Made by a program: the position numbers and the translations under genes. A stretch of DNA of 62,769 bases, filler included, from Porpidia crustulata (lineage: Eukaryota): assembly GCA_964255105.1 (NCBI GenBank). It is 12 parts of 12 records of this genome, joined end to end, with 100 filler letters (N's around TTAATTAATTAA, not from the genome) between each part and the next. Parts side by side here need not be neighbours in the genome. Positions count along the whole stretch, not along the records: positions 42,021 to 47,139 come from CAXUWE010001902.1; 11 more parts are not named here. The stretch is one strand, 5' to 3'. Numbering within the stretch: position 1 is the first letter of the stretch; each line of letters begins with the position of its first letter. This document shows positions 5,167 to 55,223 of this stretch, piece after piece. Below the pieces are notes generated by a model. It saw nothing but the letters and a program-made list of their open reading frames with translations. It had not been told where the DNA came from and searched no databases.

Positions 5167-5266
5167 NNNNNNNNNNNNNNNNNNNNNNNNNNNNNNNNNN
5201 NNNNNNNNNNTTAATTAATTAANNNNNNNNNNNNNNNNNNNNNNNNNNNNNNNNNNNNNNNNNNNN
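5167..5266. other. Artificial contig linker N44-TTAATTAATTAA-N44. Identical linkers lie at 10431-10530, 15694-15793, 20948-21047, 26201-26300, 31449-31548, 36693-36792, 41921-42020, 47140-47239, 52354-52453 and 57566-57665.
   Basis: Exactly 100 nt each, with stops in all six frames. The flanking contigs decrease monotonically in length. Confidence 0.98.
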
Positions 5267-10430: not shown

Positions 10431-10902
10431 NNNNNNNNNNNNNNNNNNNNNNNNNNNNNNNNNNNNNNNNNNNNTTAATTAATTAANNNNNNNNNNNNNN
10501 NNNNNNNNNNNNNNNNNNNNNNNNNNNNNNGAGGAAGTGGGCTTGAAACCTCCCTTGAGTTTCTTTTTTTGGGTTGGGGGGGGGATAGAATCCGCGTAGG
10601 ATCAATAATGAAGGCCACCAGGGCCGATAAGGAATGGTTGTTGTAAGGAGTGTCATGGGTTTCTTGAAAGTGATATAGTTGAACACCAATCGTGGTCACG
10701 ACTTGAATGCTTGTGAGACAACGGAATTTGATTGCTAACAAACCATGTGCTGGTCAAGAACGCCGATGCAGTTACTCGATCGCTCGCTTGTACGCAGACA
10801 TGAACATGAAATGCAAAATCGCTAAGAAGCAATCGCTAAAAATGCTTGAGAGTTGTGAACACGACTGATCGATGCCGGGGCCTTTTGGGTTCGTGGAGGT
10901 CA

Positions 10903-16162: not shown

Positions 16163-18409
16163 CTATACAAGTACCAAAGTTTCCCACGCAAAGTCAGCGT
16201 TGTCCTCCACTGCCCGTTCTACCTTGTCCATCATCCCATGCAAGTATGCCTCACCAACAAGTTCAAACTCCAAGCCAATATGGCCCTCCCTTTGTGGCAG
16301 TGGCCGCAATACAAATGGAACCCTAGCGGCCTGCAAGCAGCATATTCGATCCCTTACCTGCGCTGAGCGCGGTGCCAAACCAATGAAGCCTCGTTTGGTG
16401 TAGTAGAGACGGCGGCCCTGAGTTTGGAGGCTTTGTATATACCGATAAGGATCGTGTTCAGCAGAGTTTAGCGAGGTGGTGTTAGTATGTGCTTCTGCTG
16501 TGTGTCCGTCGTGTGGGGCAAAATTCTGCTGGGCGATCATAGTGAGACGTGTAACAATGTCGGAAACCAACGGAATTGGAATCTTGTCAGCACTGGCGGA
16601 AGAATCTAGGGTAGAGACTTCTGCTAGTGATTCCAGAAGACGGCTGTGCTCTGTAAGGAAGCTGTCGATCGTCGGCAGAACAACAGTGCCTAGTTGCCGC
16701 GATCCTTCTGGCAACGCATCTAGGGGCTGGTTTTTGATGCGCCAAATAATTTGACAGAGCTTTTCCAGAATGAAGGACCGAAACGGTAGAGCCATGTCTG
16801 CATCTGCGACTCTTCCTGATTGTCCTGAGAGTCTGGCATGGCTGGAGAGGTCCTTATTTGTAATGAGTGTCCGCCAAAGCGCCTCTATCCTGTGTTCGCC
16901 GTTGAAATACTGATGGGGCATGGTAAAAGCAAATTCCAGCAAGCTCTGTAAACTGTAGCTTTGGTTTGAGAGTGCATCTGTAATTGCAACTGAGTCGATA
17001 GCCTCAATCTCATCGATAATGGCTCCGAGGGCAGATAGCTTATTGCCTGAGACTGAGCGCGTTAGAAGAAGAGATGCAGCAGTCGGACCCTCGAAATCTT
17101 CGAGGGTCAGCCTCTGACCTATAAGCTCATGAATTTCTGGCGTCGCGCTGAGATCGGGAACCCACGAAGGAAGCTCTTTCAACCGTCGCTCGCTTCTATC
17201 TTCAACTAGGGATAAAATGGTCATCTGTGGGACTCGACTCAAGACCCAGCACGCGAATTTAAGATATAGCTTCTTTGTGGTCATGTTGTCTTCATAGCTG
17301 ACCGAGAAGTCATCAGCCCTACATCTCGACGGAATAAGGCGATTGATGGCGCCGACGACTGCGTATACTTTGTCTCTTAGGTCTGTAGTCTGGCGATACC
17401 TCATTATAGAGACAAATGAAAGCAAATATTGTGATCGAATCGTACTTGCATTCAGAATGCTTGGGGTCGGAGAAGTCGTGGGTAGAGAATCCCAGAGGGA
17501 TTGCGTGCGCTTCAAAGTGTCCCGAACGATCGATTGATCTCTCAGAGTGGCAGGTTTGTGCTTGACATCTGGATCAAGATCAAAGACATTTCTTAATATC
17601 TGAAGTGTTCGTAACGATGTGTACGGAGTGGAGTACCCCTCCTTCGCTGAAACCATGACAGAAGGATGGCTGCAGAGATCATAGATTGCAAGGTCATCCA
17701 CGTCCTGTCTTTCAATAAAATTTTTGCCATATAGGTAGCGAAGATTGGTTGCAAGTAGTGCTTCTTGGAACGTCCAGGCACGCCCAAACCAGCTTCGTCT
17801 TCGAAAGGGACTATAGGCCTCTAGTATTTTGGGGTCTGCTAGAATGCCCAACTGTAACATTCTGTCCAGACTTAAGCTTCTCATGGCCGATGTGTCTTTT
17901 GACCTGTCTCCCAAGTGCGCCCGTAGTGCTGGCATGAACTCGTTGTGGAGGCGTAGAGCACCGCTGTCTGCCGCTGACTCTGGGCCAAGCCAGACGATTA
18001 CTTCATCAGCACCAGCATATATGTCTCCCATGAGCATGACTTGAGAACTACGCTCGACAGTGTTGTTCTGATCAATACAAATGGCATCGATCCAGAAAGG
18101 ACCCTTCAGACCCTGGGAAGTAAGCGAGGATAACGCTCTTGCTAGATTTTCTCGAATAGGAAATTGAGTGTTCTCAAGAGTTATGAATAGATCCTCAGTT
18201 GGAGCATTCGTATTTCTAGGACTGTCAGGTGCGCTAGGCGCAAAAGGATCCTCCCAGGTATATGAGAGCGCAGTGAATGGTGGTGCCTCCTGTAGAAGAT
18301 ACGTTCGCAGGGAGCAGACGAAATGAGGCGTCGAATTTGAGATAGTCAGGAGACGAATCGAGCGTTCTTCCAGCAATCGACTTGCCCTATACACTGCGCG
18401 AGTAGACAT
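16163..18409 (-). CDS. Heterokaryon-incompatibility (HET-domain, HET-6-like) protein, single exon
   Basis: FTALSYTWED, FWIDAICIDQ..ERSSQVMLMGDIYAGADEVIVWLG, WFGRAWTFQE, TDLRDKVYA, LPSWVPD and C-terminal RGFIGLAP..VPFVLR..LVGEAYLHGMM. Confidence 0.92.
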   Translation of the reverse strand: MSTRAVYRASRLLEERSIRLLTISNSTPHFVCSLRTYLLQEAPPFTALSYTWEDPFAPSAPDSPRNTNAPTEDLFITLENTQFPIRENLARALSSLTSQGLKGPFWIDAICIDQNNTVERSSQVMLMGDIYAGADEVIVWLGPESAADSGALRLHNEFMPALRAHLGDRSKDTSAMRSLSLDRMLQLGILADPKILEAYSPFRRRSWFGRAWTFQEALLATNLRYLYGKNFIERQDVDDLAIYDLCSHPSVMVSAKEGYSTPYTSLRTLQILRNVFDLDPDVKHKPATLRDQSIVRDTLKRTQSLWDSLPTTSPTPSILNASTIRSQYLLSFVSIMRYRQTTDLRDKVYAVVGAINRLIPSRCRADDFSVSYEDNMTTKKLYLKFACWVLSRVPQMTILSLVEDRSERRLKELPSWVPDLSATPEIHELIGQRLTLEDFEGPTAASLLLTRSVSGNKLSALGAIIDEIEAIDSVAITDALSNQSYSLQSLLEFAFTMPHQYFNGEHRIEALWRTLITNKDLSSHARLSGQSGRVADADMALPFRSFILEKLCQIIWRIKNQPLDALPEGSRQLGTVVLPTIDSFLTEHSRLLESLAEVSTLDSSASADKIPIPLVSDIVTRLTMIAQQNFAPHDGHTAEAHTNTTSLNSAEHDPYRYIQSLQTQGRRLYYTKRGFIGLAPRSAQVRDRICCLQAARVPFVLRPLPQREGHIGLEFELVGEAYLHGMMDKVERAVEDNADFAWETLVLV

Positions 18410-19269
18410 GTCACCGAGTATTAGGGTCAATTCTGGCAGATATCAAATTCAACATCATAGTACAGAAGCAAGCCATGGAACGATATATGAAATAGAAAAG
18501 ATACCAAAATTGGAGAGCGTAAGAATCGAGATACTACCGTGGCTAATGCCCGGCTTCTTTAAACGTCAGATCTGTTAGCTATCTCCTCCGCTGCTGCAAT
18601 GCTGCTTTTTTGCTAAGACCGGGTACGCTAACCGCTTTTGCAACTATATATGCAGTGACTTTGTTGCTGCAGCGGGAGAAATATGTCTACGAAGAGTGCA
18701 ACTCTTGCCAGCAACGAACTGTTCTGCATAGAGGCACTTCGCATGATATGCAGGCGTGGCAGGCCCACAACGTCTGATTGGGTCGTTTTTGAGCTTGACT
18801 TACCCGGGCCACCACTCTGATCTTCACCCGGTCGGCCTCTTGCTAGGGGAGAGACTCCCAGCGCAGTCAAGGTCTGGAAATGCGTACAGCCTCACGGCCA
18901 GTAAGTAGAAGGAATGTGAAGTAGGCATTAGTAAACTGTTATTTACTTGGAAACTTAGACCACGTAGCCGCGTTACTACCAAAATGTCGCGATTATAAGA
19001 CGCGCTTAATAGAGTAGGTCCATGTCAGCCTTATCCGAGCTACGAATCTCAACAGTACAGTCAGGCAGGCACACAGGTTAGCAGGCTATTTTAGAATTAT
19101 CTTACTTCTTCTAAGATCAAGCCTGGGCAAATGAGTCTAAAATCATCTAGTGTTGAGATGAGCCACTCCGTAATGTCATTATAATTCTCAGAGCTGGCCA
19201 ATTTGATCCGGGGGCGAGTCCCAGCTTCTTGGTGCTTGTTAGGTTCCGAACTGGCCATTCATAGATACG

Positions 19270-41920: not shown

Positions 41921-42213
41921 NNNNNNNNNNNNNNNNNNNNNNNNNNNNNNNNNNNNNNNNNNNNTTAATTAATTAANNNNNNNNNNNNNNNNNNNNNNNN
42001 NNNNNNNNNNNNNNNNNNNNCCCTTTTCCCCTTGCCCCAACCCCCTCATACTTCCCAATATCGTCTCCGGGAAAAGACAAAAACGGCGACACCCCACAAC
42101 ATGCCACGAAAAAGCGCCGACGGAGCCATGGTCGTTCGGTCGACTGCACATGGGCACGGTCAGAGGACGCGGATGATGTGAAGCTGGTGGGGGAAAGCTT
42201 ACGGATCAGGGTT

Positions 42214-42647
42214 CTAGGTCGTGGGTTCAACGACGACGGGATGACCGCCGACTATATTGCGTTTCTCTGCAGGCTCAATAATGACGGGATGGCCGCCGAC
42301 GATGTTGCGCTTTTCAGTGGTGTCGACTACGNNNNNNNNNNGGTATTTTGGTGGTGTTCAGCTGTGCTGTTTTTGAGGTTTTGGTTGTTGTCTACGTGGA
42401 CGGGTTTACCGCCGACTATTTTGCGTTTCTCTGCAGGCTCAACGACGACAGGATGACCGCCGACAATATTGCGCTTTTCCGTGGTATCGACCACGACAGG
42501 ATGACCACCAACGATGTTGCGCTTCTCCGAGGTGTCGACCACGACGGGGTGACCGCCGACGATGTTTCTTTCCTCCACAGGTAAGGCTATCGCAAAACTG
42601 CCACCCGCAACGAGCGACACGGCTGCTAGGATTTGTGTGAGCTTCAT
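42214..42647 (-). CDS. Secreted Kex2-processed repeat protein (KEP), a candidate RiPP precursor
   Basis: Signal peptide MKLTQILAAVSLVAGGSFAIA, then LPVEER and 16-aa units NIVGGHPVVVDTSEKR, NIVGGHPVVVDTTEKR, NIVGGHPVVVEPAEKR. After the 10-N gap the repeat resumes as VVDTTEKR NIVGGHPVIIEPAEKR NIVGGHPVVVEPTT*, with TAG at 42214-42216. Confidence 0.88.
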
Positions 42648-43059
42648 GGCGGTAGTATGAGCCGAACGCGGTGGTCTTTAGGTGGCTATTGATGTTGGTG
42701 GGATGAATGAGATGGTCTGGAGGTGGAGTCACTGCAGCGTGCTATATCGCTTTTCTATTTAACTTATATGGGTGATAATTGCGTGACCATTTTCAAACGC
42801 ATTCCGGAAGCCGTCCTCCATGGTTCGGTGCGAAAAGCGTGGTCCAGAGGTAATCCGCTCTTCCTTGAAGCACCAATCTGAACAAGATGCTGTGCGCATT
42901 CGGTATTGCGATTAAATTTTGCACGAAGTTCGGTATCATACTCCTTGCCGAGATTGGTAGCTCTCACTTTTTCCTGTTGAACGGAAACTACGGGTCCGTC
43001 AATGACTTCGCTCGTAAAACCGTACAACGTCCTGGAACGAAATTTTCGTCACGCCACAG

Positions 43060-43083
43060 ACTTCCGGTGACAACTTCCGGTGA
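43060..43083. promoter_or_regulatory. Direct repeat ACTTCCGGTGA x2 (13-nt period), candidate Zn2Cys6 binding site
   Basis: Exact copies at 43060-43070 and 43073-43083, in the divergent promoter between the KEP gene and the TF gene. Confidence 0.45.
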
Positions 43084-44139
43084 AATCCGATCCCATCTTG
43101 TAGCCGACTTCTTTCTCATATTGTCTCATGGTGCGATGCGAGCGATGTAAGCCTGATTGGGCATTTACCAATGTCATCTGGACCGTAAAATTGATATTGT
43201 AAGACAAGACCCCAACTTATTCCCTAAGAATTGTCCTGAGCCGTTTGCGCATGGTAGCCTCACGTGGCATTTCTAGGCTTAACCTTGAAAAGGAGCGAAA
43301 AAACCGCACGGTAGGCGAGCCCTTGCTAGGATCTGCAGTCTTATTTTCGAAGTCTAACCTCCACAAAAACGATAGGACTGCTTATACGATAGGCTTCTTG
43401 ATAATTTGGTATCTCGAGACAAGCCATACAGGATCACTCTGATTCGTATATGCTGTCAACATTGTTGTAGCGTCGGATTTTCAACGTATCTGAGCCCTTT
43501 GCGCCGACGGCAGTCATTCGAGAAAGTGAACCAAATCAACTGTTCCAGAGGTGAACTTGAGCTGAACTATGTCAGCCTCTGTTGCCCGCAAGAGATCTTG
43601 CTAACGTCAGCTGTACCATGGTATAGTCAAAGCCTTTCAGGCTGCATGCATCAATAGCATTAGCGTTGGAGGTCGTATATCATGTCATCAATGTGTATTT
43701 CGATGTAACGCGGGCAGGTAGTACTCGGTTATAAGTTGCAAGGCTTACTTGATACCTGCATACACATAGGCGATGGTGTCTAGTTAAGCTTCGTACAAGC
43801 TTTCGGAATTGAAGCCTCTATACCGGGAGAGGAAAGGCGTCCGATTACTGTCTTGGCGGCCGACTGCGTGCATGATAGGGTGATAGGCAATAAGTAGATG
43901 AAGGTGATGGTAGAGTCCAATCCCTGTGATGGCGGTGAAGAGTTGACGATTCCTCACCTTTTGATGATAACGAGAAATGTCTGCAGATCCCTTTCTGCAC
44001 AGCTAGACTCATCTATTTATTTTTTGGCTTTTCTTTGTTCTTGTCGAGTCATGGCAAGATTATTCGGTCAAGTACTACTTATACATCTTTTAAGGGCTGA
44101 CGGGAAGGGTAGCCTCAGCACTTGGCGCGTTGCTTGCTA

Positions 44140-46761
44140 ATGGAGAACAAGATTGTGAGGCGCAGAGGTGCTTGTAACCAGTGTAAAATACGGAAGATCC
44201 GTTGTGAGTATATCAATGTTCGTAATTCGGATCCTTTGAACTGACCTGTTTTTAGGTGATGGTCAACAACCAAGCTGCTCTCGATGTCAAGTAAGGCACT
44301 ACGCAAGCCTCAAGTTCATGTCACTCATTGCTTTGGTGTAGAAACAAAAAGTTTGCTGCTTCTACCAAAAGCCACGGAGGCCGGCTCAAACCCTCAAAAC
44401 ACGTGCGTACCTCTTCTTGCGAAACAGAGATCCTGATTTAATTTCTCTCTGAAACTATGTAGCGTACTCTTCCCCTATTGTTCAAGAAGATGCCGTCCAA
44501 TCCGAGAGCTCCACGGTAGACACTTTCTTCCCTAGTTATGATTTTGCAGACTTGCATGACCTGGAATCTTTGCTCGGTCCTGTCCCAGATATTGAGGAGG
44601 TTAGACTCGACATTGGGATTGTCCAAGATTTTGATATATCCGATGGCGTGGAGTCCCAAATCAGTGAGCCTGAAGGAATACAATTCTTCGATGAGCATAT
44701 ACAAAAAAGCTCCGCCGTTCTCAGCGGGAAAAAAAAGCACAACTCGGTGCAAACTTTGTTCCAAACGGCCAGTAATTCTGGACTGAAAGTTGAGGCAAGC
44801 TCTGTCATGGGAGAAAAGATGCGTGTCATTACATCAAGCACCGCCTCCGGACTCTGTAAAATGCACCGATACTTACCTATCAACTAGAATGTGCACTATT
44901 CTGGTGAGGACCTTACTGGCTGCTATGAGCGACAGCAAGTTTCTCTCTAATCGATGATAGGGGACTCGTCAATATTTGCGAGCATCCTCTATTCTAGCTT
45001 ACAGGATTTAGACGATAATCTACGGCACAAGTCGATAAAGGCTCTTATGGAAAATGTGGCGGCCAGATCGTTCGAGATATCTATTACACTCAACGACATA
45101 GATGAAGAAATCCTCTGTAGACCAGTACATGACCCTATTTACCAGCCGCTCATTGTCCACCAGTATGTTGATGGTAAGATATAGTTTCGATCTTGATATT
45201 TTTGATTTGATATCGCTGATGTGGTTCGTACCCTAGCCTATTTCCAAGAGTATCAAAGGTGTGTGTGCGCTGGACAGTCCTTCGGAAGAGCGAAATATGC
45301 TAACGTCTTTAGTCGATTCCCTTATATATCCAAACTTGATTTTCGTTCTTATCTCGATCCTTTTCTGGCCAAATCCATACAGAGCAACAGTCCCACTATT
45401 CCGCTAGTCAACGCGATTCTGGCAATTGGGTGCCGTTTAGTAAAGAAATGTGATGGACTATTTCCTGATCAAATCGAGTCCGAATCCCGTGGCTATCTTC
45501 TCGCAGCTATGATGTCTCGTGGAAGCTTGATGGGAGGCCGTGCAACTATTTTAAATATTCAGGTACACTTTGGACCATCTACTGTGATATTGGGGAGTAC
45601 TGACCGCTATTCTCAAGGGACTACTGGCAATGGTATTACCTATGTTGACCCATTAGTGAAAACCATCGAACTAAATCGGGAACTAGACGATTTCTATCCA
45701 AGATCCACAAAGCTCAGCAATCGCCTTATCATTTGTATCTATGGCAGCACAATATGCATTAGACCTCAGGTTAAACCGCCTGAACGGCATGCGATCGCAA
45801 GCGAAAAGCGCGCAGGAACAGAACCTTCTGCAGAAGATATTCTGGGTGATATACTCTATCGAGAAGCCCTTGGCCATGAGACTTGGCCGCTCATCGGTGA
45901 AGCATGGCCTTGTGATTCCTCAGGACAGAACAAAAGCTAACATTATAAAGTCCATCAACGACAACTTCATCGACTTATCTCCTTGCAGCCTAGATCAAAA
46001 GTGTGGTGGCGGATCAGGCCAAGTAGACGGCCTCCTTAGTTCCTGTGAATTTGCGAAGTTGTGTTCCATTATGGAGTGTAGGCGGGTGAGCTGCAACCAA
46101 GATGAGCCTCGCGAGACCTTTGAATATTTGGATCAGACCCTGGAAGACTGGAAGCATTCATTTCCACCAAGGCCAACAACTTCGCATTCCGACCGCGCCC
46201 TGACTAATTGGTCCAATTTCGGGTCGTCTGTCAGAAATCAGTTGGAGCTTAGCCTACGATATCACGAACTACGATTCACCATCTACCAGAAGTAAATCCC
46301 ATCCCGTTCCCCACCATGAATATTTCCCATTAATCGAAAATGCAGAGGAACTCCATGCATTCAGTCCGCCCGAGAAGTTCTCGCACTAGCCCATCGCTTC
46401 GAACTCGATGACTGCTACTCGAATTGGTTCGTTCCACTCCCGTCTCCCTCCTTCCCCCCGTCATTCTTCACACCGCAATACGATCTCCCAACAACAGCTA
46501 ATCCAATCCCCCTCCTTCGTACCAACCAGATCCGTCGTGCAAGTCCCCGTCATGGCCTGCTGCACCCTGCTGCTCGACGTCTTCAGCCACGCCCGCTCTG
46601 ACGGCTTCCGCGGCCACATGGCCTTCCTCGGCATGGCCGGCGGCTGGTTCGGTCGGCTCGCGGCGTCGGCGTCCCCGCATGACTTTGCGTTCCGGGAGCT
46701 CATGGACCTGATAGCGCTTGCGCAGCAGTTCTGCGTTTCTTTGGATGAGTATCAGGCGTGA
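44140..46761 (+). CDS. Zn(II)2Cys6 transcription factor with fungal-specific TF (middle homology) domain, multi-exon
   Basis: Spliced N-terminus MENKIVRRRGACNQCKIRKIRCDGQQPSCSRCQKQKVCCFY (CX2CX6CX6CX2CX6C). Later segments LVNAILAIGC, AAQYALDLRLN, IFWVIYSIEK..RLGRSS and LEDWKHSFP. Confidence 0.85.
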
Positions 46762-47627
46762 CCATCGGCGTAGCTGTTCTCAGGGGTGTTTGGAGGAGAT
46801 CTACCGTTGACGCGGCCGGGATCACTGGTGCGTACATGTTCGTGACATTCTGGATTCCTGTTCTGGTAGGAAATGATTTGAGGAGGGACATTGGCCTCGT
46901 ACATAGTGGCGCTCGGCGGTGAAATAAATCGGGATTGCCGAAGTCTGCAACATCTATCGACGGAGTCTTATCTTCACTCATAGAAGCATGATTTATACAT
47001 ACAGGGAACATCAAACATCACAGACGCCAATAAGGCTGGCGAAAGCGTAATATTAAGTAAGCCAGCCAATCCTCCTAGAAGATCCAAACCACCGCATAAA
47101 CCCTCCAAACTTCCCCCTCACCATTTCCCCCTCAATCCCNNNNNNNNNNNNNNNNNNNNNNNNNNNNNNNNNNNNNNNNNNNNTTAATTAATTAANNNNN
47201 NNNNNNNNNNNNNNNNNNNNNNNNNNNNNNNNNNNNNNNTGGTTGGGTTTGCGACGGGCGGGGCTGATATCGAGGGTGTAGGAGTGAGCAGATGAATCAA
47301 GGGAGGGGTAATAAATAGCGGGTGACTTCGGTGAAAATGGGTTTGGAAGTCGTGCATAGAGGCTTGGTTGTCGAGGGCTTCAGATGGGAGGTTCAAGGCT
47401 TGGAGCAGCTGGTTTGAAGACGAGTGATCTCTATTCAGCATAGCTGTCACTCATGCTTCGTATTAAATGTACAATGTGGCCATCGCTTAAGGCCTTCCGA
47501 AATCGTCTTTTCCCACTCAAAACTCCGTGCGAATCCCAACGCCCTGCCATTATCGGCTTTACAGATGGTTTACATAAACACCCATCCACGGCCGTATCAT
47601 ATCACCAGATTTCGTACAATGCAAGTT

Positions 47628-49977
47628 CTATCTCCGTCCCATGTAGGATCGATAAAAGCCGTCAGCAGCATCATTGATCGGCCCATTGAATCCATTTGAC
47701 GCTCCCATCGTCTGTCCAGCTCTCTGTGCAGCAGCCACCTTTAATTGCAAAGCTGCGGCACCTTGATCGATCTGCTGTAGTTGGGTGAGATGGCTGTTGA
47801 GCACCCGAACAACTTGTGAAAGCTGGTTGGTTTATGATTAGCAAATGTGATAGACGGCCTTGTCGAATTGAGAGGTTTACTGGGTCATCAGCCTTGCTGT
47901 TTTTGTTCAGGGTGGACGAAGCATCATTGATTTCCTCAATCATGCTTCCTAGGTCCTTGCCCATATCATCCAATCTATCAGCTAGCCTCTCGGCAAGATT
48001 ATATCTTCATTTTGCAATTAGTGACAATCAGTTGGAGCTTGGCTGATTTGCTTACGTTTCTTCCCTCTCGTGATCCGGTCCCTGAAGGATCTCTCCCCGA
48101 CCAGCTTGTTCCGGAGCTAGTCTATCTAATTCTTGCTCGTAATACCCAAGCCAGGTCTCAATCTCAGATTGGTCGTTCTCTACTGCGGTCAGTTGTCTCT
48201 CTACTTCCGTTGTCGCACGTTCAGCTTCTAAGGTGCTACCATAAAGCTTCTGTATCTTCTCGCTATTCTCTACGAGCGTACGGTCCCAAGCAGCAACACG
48301 TTCTGCCTGCTTCTGGAACTCTTTTTGATACTTTGATAGATCCGAAGCCCATCTTGTGATAATTTCGTCCATAGACTTATTCTTTAACCGTGACTGAGCA
48401 GTAGGAGGTGGTCCGCTAGTCGAGGCACCAAGGTTCGCATTGGATGTTACTTTATCTGTCGAGGTACTAGCTGCAGGAGTTTGTGTTATAGGTTGAGAAG
48501 CACCAGTAGGAGCTGATGGCTTGCCGAGATCGCCGAACAAACTTAGCGATGGTGCAGGTGCTGAAATCGAAGGTGCAGATGTGCCAGTATTTGGGCCAAT
48601 CGTAGCTGGTGTCTTGTCTTTCTCGTTACCAAGGCCCGAGAAGAGCCCGCTGGTAAATGTGCTTGTTGAAGGTGCTGCAGAAGCAGTGGCAGAGGGCCCA
48701 GATGACGCCGTTTGACCGAATAAGCTTGAATTTGGTGGGGCTGTCGTAGGTGTCGCAGCTGCATTTCCCCCGCCAGGCTGTGACCCGGGCAAGGGGAAAC
48801 TGAACGGAGGGTTCGTCTTGGCACTCGCTGAGGCTAAAGAAGGTATAGCCCCCGAGGATTGATCACTCGATGGAGGGAACAGACTGGGTTTTGCTGCATC
48901 TCCTTGAGCATTATCATTACTACCTGCTTGGGGGTTGTTTTGATTTCCAGGCATACTGCCTCCGGCCTGAGGAGCCTTCTGATTTCCAAATAGGTTTGAG
49001 GCGTTGTTGCTCTGAGAAGCTCCAAAAAGACCTCCTGCGGGCTGTACACTCGTATTCGTTGGATTCAAAGCCGCTGGCTTGTTCGCGCCAAATAGATTGC
49101 TCGTCGATTGTGTACTCGAAGTGACCGCATTCGAATCTGGCGGCTTGCTCAACCCAAATGAGCCACTTGGGGGTTGTGCACTCGAAGTCATCGCGGTTGG
49201 TTCTTGAGACTTGCTCACTCCGAAATGACCGCCTGATGTTTGGGGAAAGCCGCCGAAAGAGCTGCCTAATGCTGCTGCTCCACTAGATTTCTGTGCTGTA
49301 GCACCTAAATTTCCGAAGCCACTCGAGTTCGTAGCATTTCCAGGTTGCGGGTTATTCAGTTTAAAGATTGATCCAGTGCTGGGCCCCGCCCCAGCGTTAC
49401 TCGGTGGTGGGGGTCCTGCTGGGGTAGTCGAACCAAACGAAAACCCTGTACTCGACTTGCTTGCCGGTGTCGCGTTCACTTGTCCAGACGGCGCACTAGA
49501 GCCTGCGTTGCCAAACAAAGCTCCAATTCCAGTACTGGCTGCGGCGCCGAAAAGACCCGTACCCTGACTACCACCCGAGCTCTCTGTAGGTTTGTTCGGT
49601 GTCGAGAAGCCTGCGAATCCTGAAGACGAGCCTGTATTCGGAACATTACCGGTCAACCCGGGGCCAAAGCTAAACACACTGAGAACCGACTTACCGCCTG
49701 CACCGAATATTTTACTACCACCACTAGCTTGTTGACCTACTCCGAATTGCGCAGAATTGTCGGGATTTGCGCCAAATAATGAGTTTGTGGGAGCCGCAGC
49801 GGTGTTACTTCCAAAAAGATTTAAAGTCGAGGTCGATGAAGGGTTGCCACTTGAGCCGAATGAAATTCCTGGTTTGGAATTGGTCGAGGAGGGCTGGCTA
49901 AATAGATTGCTGGATCCTCCACTGGTAGCTGCTGTGTTGAAGGAAAATGTAGGGACTGATTTCGGAGGGTCCGACAT
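47628..49977 (-). CDS. NSP1: FG-repeat nucleoporin Nsp1/Nup62
   Basis: FG/FSFG-rich N-terminus and a C-terminal coiled coil LKNKSMDEIITRWASDL..WDRTLVENSEKI..LSQVVRVLNSHLTQLQ. Confidence 0.92.
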
Positions 49978-50247
49978 GGTGATATGAAGCAAGGGATGGC
50001 CGTCTCTGCGCTGCAGCCCACCGTTAGTCGCTGGCCCTCTTAAGCTTGCTGTTTACTTACAGATATGCAATGTTTGCGTGTCAATTCCTGAGTGACGGGT
50101 TTGGTACCTCCGGTAATTTCGGAGAGACGCGATTGAAGCGAACAAGCGCGAAGCTGCTAGCGTGAATTGCTTAGATATGACACAACGTTTGATGTAAATC
50201 CACAACTTCTTCGGCGTTCTGTCATAAGAGATAGGATCATTGCAGAA

Positions 50248-52868: not shown

Positions 52869-55223
52869 TCACACGCATCGCTCGGCCCAACTTTCGATCA
52901 TACCTTCCATGGTGGCATCATACTCCTTGAGGGCAACAGTTCCATCCTCTCTCAAGAAGGTATTGGCTTGTACTAGAATTTGCCTTGGCCTCTTGTTTGC
53001 GATGACGATCTTCCGCCATTCAATGAAAATACCATCCACTTTCGTCAGTTCTTCGAAATATTCTCGGCACGCTACAATATCAGCAGTGCAGCGATAAATG
53101 TGCAAATATAAGAGGAGCTTGCCGATCGCAGGCTTCCCATGACTTTGGATTTTCGAACGATCAATATGCACAATGAGGTTGTTTGTAGAGGCGTCATGAG
53201 TGACTGTCAGAAAGGAATCACCAGCATCGAGCAAGACTCGCAACATTGCAAAATGGCCTCTTAAATGCGCTTGACCCCACTTCTGATCGTCTTCGATGTA
53301 GTTTTCCAATGCGTGTAGGCCAGCTGTGCCTACCTCCAGGTAGACAGCCCATGTGATGTCTGTTCCAATCATTATGCTCTCGTTGAAGCCAAACAGCTTT
53401 AGAAGCTCCTCGTCGTCCATGAGATACGCACCTACACACTCGGCACGGCACTCATCTAGACTAGTGGCTAGGTCCCCAAAAACACCAGTCCAGCTTTCTC
53501 CAGGCTTGTACCAGGTTGTTATTGGCTTTCCAGTGAGAGGGCTGGTCGGCGGGTTTGCTATGTCAAAGTTATAAGAGTTTGTCCCATACTGTGTCAGGAG
53601 TTTGGAAGTGCCATGGCTAAGGAGTTCGTGGAGTACCACCCATATATAGAAGGCATCGTATTCGGCAATAAGATAAGCTGATACTTGAGCAGGATCAATA
53701 AAGGCAGGGTCTTGACAATCTACCCTATACTCTGCTGCGATTTGATTTGATATCATGACATTCTTGAAGCCTACGTCTTGTCGAATATCATTGTAATTCG
53801 GCAAATTNNNNNNNNNNNNNNNNNNNNNNNNNNNNNNNNNNNNNNNNNNNNNNNNNNNNNNNNNNNNNNNNNNNNNNNNNNNNNNNNNNNNNNNNNNNNN
53901 NNNNNNNTCATGACATTCTTGAAGCCTACGTCTTGTCGAATATCATTGTAATTCGGCAAATTAATGCCTGGAAAGATGATGCTGGAGCAGTAAGCGAGGG
54001 TTTGAAGGCTAGTGAAATCTGGAGGTTCAAAAAGTTGCTTCTCAAACAGCCCTTTACCATTATTTTCGGTTGTGTTTTCTGCCCATGGAAGCTGGCGAAT
54101 ATATTTTGCGGATGATTCAACTATCTTAGTCAAAACTTTTGTCTCCTCAGCGTCCACGATGGCCACCAAGCCCTCGAACTCCGCCCTGGTCCCGTAGGGG
54201 TCTCGATACGGCTCAACAAATCCAAACGCATTTTCCACAGCGGGGCGAATGTCCTTGACCCACAATTGCTGCGATTCTCTGTAGGCTTCAAGGTCCCCAG
54301 TTTGAAAGCTTTCAATGTACTTTGAAATAATATTCTTCTGCACAAGAGTTGCTGCATATGGAATGGCTTGCTCCAAGCATGCACTAACTTGCTTGAGCTG
54401 TTCTGAATGATCTCCTCGTACAATTTGAATAACCAATGATGATTCGGGAGAGACAATCTGACGAGGGGCCTTACTATCATCTTGGTCCACAGAAGCCTGG
54501 AGGACATTATATTTCACGCTCCCATTGTCGATAACTTTTGAAATGCAAGTGTTCTCAGGAAAGAGTAGTTCCTTTTCTGAGTCTTCGAGACTGAATCAAT
54601 TTCTCCGCGAGTCATGTGTGCAGCCCCAGGGTAGTACATGCTTTGAGCCACATCGCTAGGGAAACCTAAACTGCTTGGGTGTCGTTCAAATATTAATTGC
54701 GAAATAGTGTCGTAAAGCTGGGCGGTTTGTGTAGATACTTTTGAAAGACGTTTGAGATCCTCTTTAGAGAGACATGGAATAAGTTTTTGATCTCCTCGCC
54801 CCTGGAACCAGTCAATGGGTCATCGTACCCAGCAAATCTCGTAACCCACATAGTAGTTTCCAATGTTTCCAAGGAAAGTGGCCGAGTAGTCCATGAATTC
54901 TGTGACGCTTATCGGAGAAACGGCAGTCCTAGAAGCTAAACCAACCCAATCTCCTTCACAGGCTTCATATATTGCGAGTATGAAGTCAAATATTGGCGTG
55001 GACTCATTAGAGACTTGACGCAAAATCACTCGTGCCCCATGCCAGGCAGCTCTAATTGAGACTTCAGCCGGTACGAGCTCCTTGAGCCTGATTTGTACGC
55101 ATACCTAGCCATATGATGAGCATAAAGCTTCTGTGAAGCATCCAATGACTCGAAGGCATGCTTGACAGACATCTGTCCGACAGTTGGATGCCTTGGCGCC
55201 AGAATTGGGTCGTCAGAAAACAT
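52869..55223 (-). pseudogene. DPP3: Dipeptidyl peptidase III (peptidase M49) gene with an apparent frameshift and altered motifs
   Basis: KLYAHHMARAAW, GFVEPYRDPYG.RAEFEG, GINLPNYNDIRQ..GFKNV, HELLSH and DECRAE. A 1-nt deletion lies near 54578. The family call is strong, but pseudogene versus sequencing error is unresolved. Confidence 0.7.

What the first reader, a model, noticed from the sequence alone, without database searches (positions are those of the whole stretch)
42214..42647. Candidate new fungal RiPP/KEP precursor: tandem NIVGGHPVVV(D/E)xxE peptides released at KR sites
Seen in sequence: a signal peptide followed by at least six 48-nt repeat units separated by EKR, continuing past the internal gap to a stop. 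The ORF track misses this C-terminal part. The copies differ mostly at synonymous positions while the NIVGGHPV core is kept, which suggests selection on the peptide. Established knowledge: signal peptide plus KR-delimited repeats is the architecture of Kex2-processed repeat proteins, including dikaritin precursors (ustiloxin UstA, phomopsin, asperipin) and alpha-factor-type pheromones. Inference: Kex2/Kex1 processing would give about 14-mer peptides (NIVGGHPVVVDTSE, ..DTTE, ..EPAE, ..PVIIEPAE). The cores lack the Tyr/aromatic residue that known dikaritins cross-link, and lack the Trp/Cys of ascomycete alpha-pheromones. I do not recognise this core, so it may be an undescribed peptide class.
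Basis: partly seen in the sequence, partly recalled or inferred. Interest (0 to 1): 0.85.

Follow-up and report, generated by a model that had tools for sequence, protein, structure and literature searches.

The report
Secreted fungal multi-copy peptide precursor
This is a real small fungal gene for a secreted protein made of repeated copies of one short peptide separated by protease cutting sites, a common kind of fungal peptide precursor whose particular peptide is undescribed and of unknown function.

Summary
On the minus strand, 42647 to 42214, a signal-peptide-like N-terminus is followed by 48-nt units that encode NIVGGHPV(V/I)(V/I)+acidic tail+KR. I count five intact cores, one degenerate unit and one partial unit, broken by a 10-N scaffold gap. 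Among the intact cores, synonymous differences far exceed non-synonymous ones (pS 0.585 vs pN 0.041).

Three public hypothetical proteins (66-82 aa) share the same leader and R|NIVGGxPxVV repeats, so this is a small conserved family. It has no Pfam family and no PDB relative, and I found no mention of the core in print.

It meets the published sequence criteria for a Kex2-processed repeat protein (KEP). That class holds thousands of members and hundreds of types, so a new core is ordinary.

The only other gene on the 5.1-kb contig is a divergent Zn2Cys6 transcription factor. No DUF3328 or other tailoring gene is visible, and the core has no aromatic residue. Only 192 bp lie beyond the stop codon, so a cluster cannot be excluded.

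The gap could not be closed, and no RNA data were available. Cleavage, secretion and function are all inferred.

Verdict: new member of a known kind, of modest interest.

The parts
42585..42647 (-). Start codon (42647-42645) and signal-peptide-like leader MKLTQILAAVSLVAGGSFAIA. The likely signal-peptidase site follows A-I-A (residue 21).
   Evidence: hydropathy, AxA motif. The leader is conserved in P0003 and P0006. AlphaFold models a helix at residues 3-14. The cleavage site is inferred; no predictor was run.
42567..42584 (-). Short pro-piece LPVEER, ending in the first Arg|Asn junction. This junction is non-dibasic and has Val at P4.
42519..42566 (-). Unit U1: NIVGGHPVVVDTSE + KR
42471..42518 (-). 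Unit U2: NIVGGHPVVVDTTE + KR
42423..42470 (-). Unit U3: NIVGGHPVVVEPAE + KR
42342..42422 (-). Degenerate unit U4 (KIVGGKPVHVDNNQNL) followed by a non-repeat tail (KNSTAEHHQNT) that runs into the gap. Its status is unresolved: diverged unit, spacer or assembly-end artefact.
   Evidence: No listed Logan contig piece covers it, which proves nothing either way.
42332..42341 (.). Scaffold gap of 10 N of unknown true length. Unit number and reading-frame continuity across it are unknown.
   Evidence: Not bridged by the one public contig that holds the locus.
42307..42330 (-). Partial unit U5: ..VVDTTE + KR
42259..42306 (-). Unit U6: NIVGGHPVIIEPAE + KR
42214..42258 (-). Terminal unit U7, NIVGGHPVVVEPTT, with stop codon TAG at 42216-42214. 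Relatives end the same way, with a core, 2-4 residues and a stop.
42763..42768 (-). TATAAG, a TATA-box-like element about 120 nt upstream of the ATG
   Evidence: Sequence read. Its function is inferred.
44140..46761 (+). Divergently oriented neighbour, a Zn2Cys6 plus Fungal_trans transcription factor. Its ATG lies 1493 nt from the precursor's ATG, and two short introns interrupt the zinc-cluster region. It may or may not regulate the precursor.
   Evidence: Pfam Fungal_trans, 25.4 bits against a cut-off of 23. The spliced Zn2Cys6 motif was read by eye. The gene model is mine and approximate.

Best explanation
A real gene of a filamentous fungus encodes a secreted Kex2-processed repeat protein (KEP).

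Proposed mechanism:
1. The leader takes the protein into the ER and is removed after Ala21.
2. In the late Golgi, a kexin (Kex2/KexB-type subtilase) cuts after the Arg at every ...E-K-R|N junction. It probably also cuts at the first V-E-E-R|N junction.
3. A Kex1-type carboxypeptidase trims the C-terminal Lys-Arg.
4. Five or more copies of acidic linear 14-mers are secreted. They have the form NIVGGHPV(V/I)(V/I)(D/E)xxE, and the C-terminal one is NIVGGHPVVVEPTT.

The conserved N-terminal decapeptide NIVGGxPxVV is the functional part, and the acidic tail with the basic pair is spacer. Positions 6 and 8 are uniform within a protein but differ between relatives (H/V here, S/K and S/R elsewhere). 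This suggests a species-specific extracellular signal or interaction peptide made in multiple copies per transcript.

Shown: the gene, its repeats, purifying selection on the core, conservation in relatives, the Arg at every junction, and the absence of a predicted fold.
Inferred: secretion, cleavage, trimming, linearity and function.
For: - Open frame with ATG, an in-frame upstream stop and TAG.
- GC by codon position is 0.66/0.36/0.59 before the gap and 0.68/0.39/0.61 after it. The order (first high, second low) is the same as in 8 of the 10 Pfam-supported ORFs of the window; 48052-50052 and 45687-46292 do not follow it.
- Core pS 0.585 against pN 0.041 over the 10 unit pairs.
- The exhaustive HMMER search gave 13 hits at E up to 0.001. 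I fetched 7 of them. P0003 (82 aa, E 4.3e-10, 61% identity) and P0006 (66 aa, E 9.3e-06, 62% identity) have the same leader and repeats.
- The profile search added P0014.
- Junctions across the four proteins have P1 = Arg in 14 of 14 and P2 = Lys/Arg in 9 of 14 (5 of 6 in the window protein). Of the 5 non-dibasic junctions, 4 have an aliphatic P4. This fits the reported Kex2 preference for P1 Arg, P2 Lys/Arg and aliphatic or basic P4 (passages of PMC6258133 and PMC3777899).
- Leader features.
- No hydrophobic segment after the leader: the best 19-aa window scores 0.54.
- AlphaFold gives mean pLDDT 41.9, pTM 0.16 and no structure beyond the leader helix (only 4 sequences in the alignment).
- The protein meets the KEP criteria of PMC7329392 (Methods) and PMC6339444 (passages).
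- KEP-derived linear peptides have been detected by mass spectrometry in other fungi (abstract of PMC9769878).
Against: - There is no direct evidence of transcription, secretion or cleavage.
- Continuity across the 10-N gap is unproven.
- Unit U4 is degenerate, lacks a KR and is followed by non-repeat sequence. The locus could therefore be two tandem genes or be partly misassembled.
- In relatives the junctions are often not dibasic (E-R, A-R, N-R; 5 of 14). One of these, P-V-N-R, has neither a basic P2 nor an aliphatic P4. A protease other than Kex2, or incomplete processing, is therefore possible.
- No dedicated signal-peptide predictor was run.
- Whether this genome encodes Kex2 could not be checked, because no genome is held.
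- The taxonomic origin of the three relatives is unknown.
Confidence: 0.62

Rival explanations
1. RiPP precursor, dikaritin-like or a new class. The same precursor is cut by kexin, but the cores are then cyclised or otherwise modified by tailoring enzymes encoded beyond the end of the contig. The adjacent Zn2Cys6 factor would be the cluster regulator.
For: The precursor has the KEP architecture used by ustiloxin-type RiPPs. According to the abstract of PMC7329392, 22% of KEP genes have a DUF3328 gene nearby, at an average distance of 3.09 genes. That is further than this contig reaches: about one gene on the 5' side and 192 bp on the 3' side. A divergent Zn2Cys6/Fungal_trans regulator lies 1.5 kb away. 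This arrangement is usual for fungal biosynthetic clusters (recalled), but such regulators are very numerous.
Against: None of the 54 contig ORFs of at least 45 aa matched DUF3328, tyrosinase, methyltransferase, peptidase or transporter families at E up to 1. The single HxxHC motif on the contig (44317-44331) is one of 3 in the whole window and lies in a 48-aa ORF without a DUF3328 match. The visible protein contains no Tyr, Trp or Cys, and its only Phe is in the leader. The cross-links of ustiloxin, phomopsin and asperipin use Tyr (recalled).
Confidence: 0.12
2. Secreted repeat protein that is not cut into peptides. It could act as a disordered, acidic extracellular or wall-associated protein. 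Alternatively it could be cut into peptides that act collectively at the hyphal surface, as the Ustilago Rep1 repellents do, rather than as signals.
For: Cleavage is not shown. Several family junctions are not dibasic (5 of 14). The cores are rich in beta-branched residues (26 Val and 10 Ile among the 140 visible residues), which would favour self-association (inference).
Against: Arg is invariant at all 14 junctions, while the residues around it vary. The unit is short and strictly periodic, with an acidic spacer. There is no Cys, no Ser/Thr-rich region and no C-terminal hydrophobic anchor signal. No fold is predicted.
Confidence: 0.12
3. Two tandem paralogous genes rather than one. Gene A would carry the leader, U1-U3 and a decayed terminal unit U4. 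Gene B would have its 5' end hidden in the gap and would carry U5-U7. This concerns gene structure only and is compatible with any of the functional readings.
For: The relatives carry only 2-3 units. The units show block similarity. The U3 and U6 tails are identical in 18 of 18 bases, and U5p is closest to U2 (21 of 24). The U7 core is closest to U3 (28 of 30), and the U4 core is closest to U7 (24 of 30). U4 is followed by non-repeat sequence.
Against: No stop codon is seen after U4 before the gap. No second leader or promoter is visible. I recall that assemblers write 10 N for short unresolved gaps, which would leave little room for a second 5' end (recalled, not tested).
Confidence: 0.15
4. 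Not a gene: a non-coding minisatellite or an assembly artefact.
For: The assembly is fragmented, with contigs of about 5 kb and word depth 11 in the one public run that holds the locus. A gap lies inside the array.
Against: The excess of synonymous over non-synonymous differences, the conserved leader and core in three independent public proteins, the coding-like GC pattern by codon position, and an identical independent contig covering 42428-42900.
Confidence: 0.03

Closest known systems
Kex2-processed repeat proteins (KEPs) as defined by Le Marquer et al. 2019 (PMC6339444) and Umemura 2020 (PMC7329392)
   Same: Signal peptide, tandem short units separated by KR sites, no transmembrane segment and a small size. 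Like most KEPs, it has a lineage-restricted core and no known function.
   Different: This core (NIVGGxPxVV) was not found in any text I could search. In the family as a whole, the junction is an invariant Arg whose P2 residue is not always basic.
Yeast alpha-factor precursor (MFalpha1) and ascomycete alpha-type pheromone precursors
   Same: A secreted multi-copy precursor processed by Kex2 and Kex1 into identical linear peptides of about 13 residues. Copies are kept identical by selection.
   Different: There is no X-Ala/X-Pro Ste13 signature after the KR site, because the core starts with Asn-Ile. The Trp/Cys/Gly-Gln-Pro features of known alpha pheromones are absent (recalled; the PCW motif is mentioned in a passage of PMC6339444). 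The spacer is C-terminal and acidic rather than N-terminal.
Ustiloxin precursor UstA and other dikaritin precursors (phomopsin, asperipin-2a; epichloecyclin GigA)
   Same: KEP-type precursor with many KR-delimited short cores, and a Zn2Cys6 regulator nearby.
   Different: No DUF3328/UstYa gene is visible on the contig. The core has no Tyr or other aromatic residue. The conserved core is longer (10 residues) than the 4-6-residue dikaritin cores (recalled).
Ustilago maydis Rep1 repellent precursor
   Same: A secreted repeat protein cut at KR sites into many peptides.
   Different: Rep1 peptides are much longer, about 35-53 aa, and act at the hyphal surface (recalled). There is no sequence similarity.

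Membership tests
KEP (Kex2-processed repeat protein) | N-terminal signal peptide (SignalP-positive in both published screens) | tested here: met
   Tested by manual criteria only. There is a Lys at position 2. The best 19-aa hydropathy window, starting at residue 6, scores 2.15. A-I-A lies at positions -3 to -1 before Leu22. The leader is conserved in P0003 and P0006. SignalP was not available.
KEP (Kex2-processed repeat protein) | At least 3 tandem repeats of at least 8 aa, each no longer than 100 aa, lying between KR/KK/RK/RR sites (PMC7329392 Methods); or at least four fragments after in-silico cutting at KR/RR (PMC6339444) | tested here: met
   U2, U3 and U6 each lie between two KR sites. 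Cutting at KR gives at least 6 fragments. Counting U6 assumes that both sides of the gap belong to one gene. Before the gap alone there are 3 KR sites and 4 fragments.
KEP (Kex2-processed repeat protein) | No transmembrane segment after the signal peptide (PMC6339444 pipeline) | tested here: met
   The best 19-residue Kyte-Doolittle window after residue 22 scores 0.42 before the gap and 0.54 after it. TMHMM was not run.
KEP (Kex2-processed repeat protein) | Actual cleavage by a kexin and release of the peptides | not testable with these tools
   This needs peptidomics or a kex2 mutant. Presence of Kex2 in this genome could not be checked, because no genome is held.
Dikaritin / ustiloxin-type fungal RiPP | DUF3328 (UstYa) oxidase gene near the precursor gene | tested here: inconclusive
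   None was found among the 54 ORFs of at least 45 aa of the contig (42022-47139) at Pfam E up to 1. The contig shows about 4.5 kb on one side and 192 bp on the other, and the published mean distance is 3.09 genes.
Dikaritin / ustiloxin-type fungal RiPP | Aromatic residue (Tyr) in the core that forms the ether cross-link | tested here: not met
   The visible protein has no Tyr, Trp or Cys, and its single Phe lies in the leader. That Tyr is required is recalled for ustiloxin, phomopsin and asperipin and was not read here.
Ascomycete alpha-type sex pheromone precursor | Ste13 dipeptide signature (X-Ala or X-Pro) after the Kex2 site, and a conserved pheromone core | tested here: not met
   In the window protein, 5 of 6 cores begin with Asn-Ile directly after the Arg, and the degenerate U4 begins with Lys-Ile. 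The Ste13 signature is described in passages of PMC6339444. The core features were compared from memory only.

The most novel reading that the evidence does not exclude
The NIVGGxPxVV proteins may be a lineage-restricted family of species-specific secreted fungal signalling peptides. The core is held identical within each protein by selection while positions 6 and 8 switch between species (H/V, S/K, S/R). The peptides would be released at invariant Arg|Asn junctions that are often not dibasic, and so partly by a specificity other than the textbook Kex2 pair. Alternatively, the same precursor may feed a RiPP pathway without an aromatic cross-link, whose tailoring genes lie just beyond this 5-kb contig and are controlled by the adjacent Zn2Cys6 factor.
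Probability: 0.15. Interest if true: 0.55.

Novelty: new member of a known kind. Interest (0 to 1): 0.27.

Why it matters
KEP-derived peptides are a large and almost unexplored pool of fungal secreted peptides. Only a few have a known role, such as mating pheromones and the ustiloxin-type toxins, and knock-outs of several in Coprinopsis gave no phenotype (abstract of PMC9769878).

This locus adds one more small conserved family, with a clear selection signature on a 10-residue core and exact predicted masses, so it can be tested directly by peptidomics. It does not open a new question by itself. It would gain interest only if the peptides proved to be modified or to have a receptor or a target.

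The finding also shows that this window is a chain of unrelated 5-kb contigs, so arguments from gene neighbourhood cannot reach beyond 42022-47139.

Tried and rejected
- **Gap closure and expression.** One public run (X1, no kind or library on record) holds the locus. Its single contig piece covers 42428-42900 with no differences and stops inside the array, so the gap was not bridged. Two runs from the same study held nothing. No RNA holder was listed.
- **Own genome.** Not held.
- **First word-indexed protein search.** 1528 candidates, none at E up to 0.01. The exhaustive search later found relatives within the same length range, so that blank was a sensitivity failure.
- **'Longer' profile search.** One hit, P0016 (587 aa), an unrelated Gly/Ser/Asn-rich repeat protein that happens to contain NIVGG.
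- **P0015.** 109 aa, E 1.2e-3, doubtful.
- **P0004.** 346 aa with DISGGSGSMSVERIEKR repeats, E 7.7e-8. This is another KR-delimited repeat protein. Its similarity rests on I-x-G-G and EKR, so I left the relationship open.
- **Hits not fetched.** P0005 and P0008-P0012 (747-1906 aa, 26-36% identity) were not fetched.
- **Metagenome scan.** 35 pattern matches, of which 1 passed tblastn (L001). That match lies antisense to a 1037-aa ORF that looks like a bacterial RND-type transporter (my reading, no family search), so it is spurious.
- **Prokaryote genome scan.** 12 pattern matches, none confirmed.
- **ESM Atlas.** Closed for these sequences.
- **Published KEP catalogues.** No 'NIVGG', 'IVGGHP' or 'IVGGSP' in the held supplements. 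This is uninformative. Umemura's Table S2 lists accessions only, and Le Marquer's Table S2 is held only as 1644 characters of PDF text. Membership in those catalogues stays unchecked.
- **Other RiPP papers.** The supplements of the lichen and Trichoderma RiPP papers contain no 'IVGG'.
- **Intron reading of the U4 tail.** No GTRNGY-type donor lies between 42430 and 42300. The one join that keeps the frame needs a poor GTAAAC donor (by eye). Rejected as unsupported.
- **Bacterial promoter/terminator scan.** Irrelevant for a fungus.
- **Earlier findings of this scan.** Nothing for this genome or sequence. The word search returned only analogous repeat precursors from other organisms.

Full report
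**What the window is.** The 62,769-base window is not one stretch of genome. It contains 22 runs of 44 N arranged as 11 N44-TTAATTAATTAA-N44 linkers, plus one 10-N run and one 100-N run. It is therefore a chain of 12 unrelated contigs of about 5.1 kb each. The finding lies at the left end of the contig spanning 42022-47139. Only 192 bp of real sequence lie beyond the gene's stop codon. Pfam matches on the other contigs (HET, DBR1, PGAP1, Nsp1_C, peptidase M49 and others) and Fungal_trans on this contig show a filamentous fungus, probably Pezizomycotina. No whole genome is held for it.

**Checking the observation.** The coordinates fit a minus-strand coding region exactly. The ATG lies at 42647 with an in-frame stop just upstream. 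The leader is MKLTQILAAVSLVAGGSFAIA, followed by LPVEER and then 48-nt units.

The units are as follows:
- U1-U3 (42566-42423) are intact: NIVGGHPVVV followed by DTSEKR, DTTEKR or EPAEKR.
- U4 (42422-42375) is degenerate, KIVGGKPVHVDNNQNL. It runs on into non-repeat sequence up to a 10-N scaffold gap (42341-42332).
- Beyond the gap, in a different frame if the 10 N are taken literally, come a partial unit (..VVDTTEKR), U6 (NIVGGHPVIIEPAEKR) and U7 (NIVGGHPVVVEPTT), with TAG at 42216-42214.

Tandem Repeats Finder scores the part before the gap at 190, with period 48 and 3.3 copies. The motif occurs nowhere else in the window.

Over the 10 pairs of the five intact units, the first ten codons have pS 0.585 against pN 0.041, and the six tail codons have pS 0.667 against pN 0.250. 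GC content by codon position looks coding. A TATAAG lies about 120 nt upstream of the ATG.

I therefore call the observation confirmed, with three corrections:
- The units are five intact cores, one degenerate unit and one partial unit, rather than 'six'.
- The first junction is EER, not KR.
- Continuity across the gap is an assumption.

**Relatives.** The first word-indexed search found nothing. An exhaustive HMMER pass over 1.84 billion representatives gave 13 hits at E up to 0.001. I fetched seven of them. Two are clear relatives. P0003 (82 aa) has the form leader-...SAR-(NIVGGSPKVVDTDTKKR)x2-NIVGGSPKVVVDES. P0006 (66 aa) has the form leader-...VKR-NIVGGSPRVVEER-NIVGGSPRVVVEER-NIVGGSPRVVES. 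They are 61% and 56% identical to the window protein in the alignment.

A profile search added the partial P0014 (NIIGGSSKVVEEERR / NIVGGSSKAVEEP). The other hits are unrelated long repeat proteins. P0004 is another KR-delimited repeat protein whose kinship I leave open. A 'longer' profile search, a metagenome DNA scan (its single hit is antisense to a bacterial transporter-like ORF) and a prokaryote genome scan added nothing. The family is therefore small. Each of the three is listed as a cluster of one member sequence; P0006 and P0014 are named only 'hypothetical protein' and P0003 carries no name.

**What is conserved.** Across the four proteins, the invariant elements are the leader pattern, an Arg immediately before every core (14 of 14 junctions), and N-I-(V/I)-G-G-x-x-x-(V/A)-V. 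Positions 6 and 8 are uniform within a protein but differ between proteins: H and V here, S and K or S and R in the relatives. The tail is short, acidic and variable.

P2 is Lys or Arg in 9 of 14 junctions (5 of 6 in the window protein). Of the five non-dibasic junctions (VEER, ISAR, VEER, VEER, PVNR), four have an aliphatic P4. Passages in PMC3777899 and PMC6258133 state that Kex2 demands Arg at P1, prefers Lys or Arg at P2, accepts aliphatic or basic P4, and shows a strong secondary preference for L-x-x-R. Most junctions therefore remain plausible kexin sites, though some would be poor ones.

**Mechanism proposed.** The leader is removed after A-I-A. A kexin then cuts after each junction Arg, and a Kex1-type carboxypeptidase trims the Lys-Arg. 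The products are secreted linear acidic 14-mers whose masses are given. No X-Ala or X-Pro dipeptide follows the cut, so no Ste13 trimming is expected (signature described in PMC6339444).

Several observations argue against a folded or anchored structural protein. AlphaFold, on a shallow 4-sequence alignment, gives pLDDT 41.9 with only the leader helix. No PDB sequence relative exists. There is no later hydrophobic segment, and the protein has no Cys. All processing steps remain inferred. No RNA run was listed, and the single public contig that holds the locus stops at 42428, inside the array.

**RiPP or not.** The only other recognisable gene on the contig is a divergently oriented transcription factor. 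Its Zn2Cys6 cluster is split by two short introns (GTGAGT...CTGAC...TAG and GTAAGG...TAG), and a Fungal_trans domain follows. Its ATG at 44140 lies 1493 nt from the precursor's ATG.

None of the 54 ORFs of at least 45 aa on the contig matched DUF3328, tyrosinase, methyltransferase, peptidase or transporter families at E up to 1. One HxxHC motif at 44317 is at chance level, being one of 3 in the window. The visible protein has no Tyr, Trp or Cys. According to the abstract of PMC7329392, 22% of KEP genes have a DUF3328 gene nearby, at a mean distance of 3.09 genes. That is further than this contig reaches, so the test is one-sided. I put a RiPP reading at about 0.12.

**The unresolved middle.** U4 and its tail are unique in the window, contain no consensus splice donor and are not covered by the listed public contig. 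Unit similarities come in blocks. The U3 and U6 tails share 18 of 18 bases, U5p is nearest to U2, the U7 core is nearest to U3 (28 of 30), and the U4 core is nearest to U7. This pattern is compatible with an internal block duplication or with two tandem genes. Only sequencing across the gap can tell.

**Comparison with the known, and novelty.** The protein meets the sequence criteria of both published KEP screens (Methods of PMC7329392; pipeline passages of PMC6339444). It does not fit alpha-pheromone precursors or dikaritin precursors on the features I could test.

I found no description of the core:
- There is no Pfam family. The only match was DUF3945 at 17.3 bits, below its 21.9 cut-off.
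- 0 papers contain 'NIVGGHP'.
- 28 papers contain 'NIVGG', and the 20 listed are unrelated.

I could not check the two KEP catalogues at sequence level. One table lists accessions only, and the other is held as 1644 characters of PDF text.

KEPs number 7878 in 1345 strains, falling into 838 types and 2560 singletons (abstract), so an undescribed core is the norm. My verdict is that this is a new member of a known kind. It is real, it is well supported as a peptide precursor, and it is of modest interest.

Noticed in passing
window 5167-5266, 10431-10530, and so on (11 linkers); 42332-42341; 53808-53907: The window is a chain of 12 contigs of about 5.1 kb, joined by N44-TTAATTAATTAA-N44 linkers. 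Gene-neighbourhood arguments are valid only within each contig. A 100-N gap interrupts a peptidase M49 gene (52869-54595, minus strand).
   Followed up: yes
window 44140-46761 (+): A Zn2Cys6 plus Fungal_trans transcription factor. Its zinc-cluster coding region is split by two short introns. After splicing by eye it reads as a canonical C-x2-C-x6-C-x6-C-x2-C-x5/6-C motif.
   Followed up: partly
window 42402-42566 and 42238-42306 (-), the repeat cores: The core contains I-V-G-G directly after a basic cleavage site. This resembles the mature N-terminus of chymotrypsin-fold serine proteases (R|IVGG; recalled). It also contains G-G-H, which would form a copper/nickel-binding amino-terminal motif if three residues were trimmed (recalled). 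The extra Asn before IVGG, and the Ser that replaces His in all three relatives, make both resemblances probably coincidental.
   Followed up: no
L001 5001-5054: The antisense strand of a bacterial transporter-like gene (1037-aa ORF) in a metagenome contig happens to read KRNIVGGHPVHVEF. This chance match passed the tblastn filter, which is a caution for motif-based locus scans.
   Followed up: yes
window 16163-18442 (-): A 759-aa ORF with a HET (heterokaryon incompatibility) domain. It supports a filamentous ascomycete origin.
   Followed up: no
P0004 (346 aa): A predicted protein with an internal signal-peptide-like segment followed by about nine DISGGSGSMSVERIEKR units. It is another KR-delimited 17-residue repeat precursor, possibly distantly related to this family (I-x-G-G...EKR). 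Its annotated N-terminus looks over-extended.
   Followed up: no
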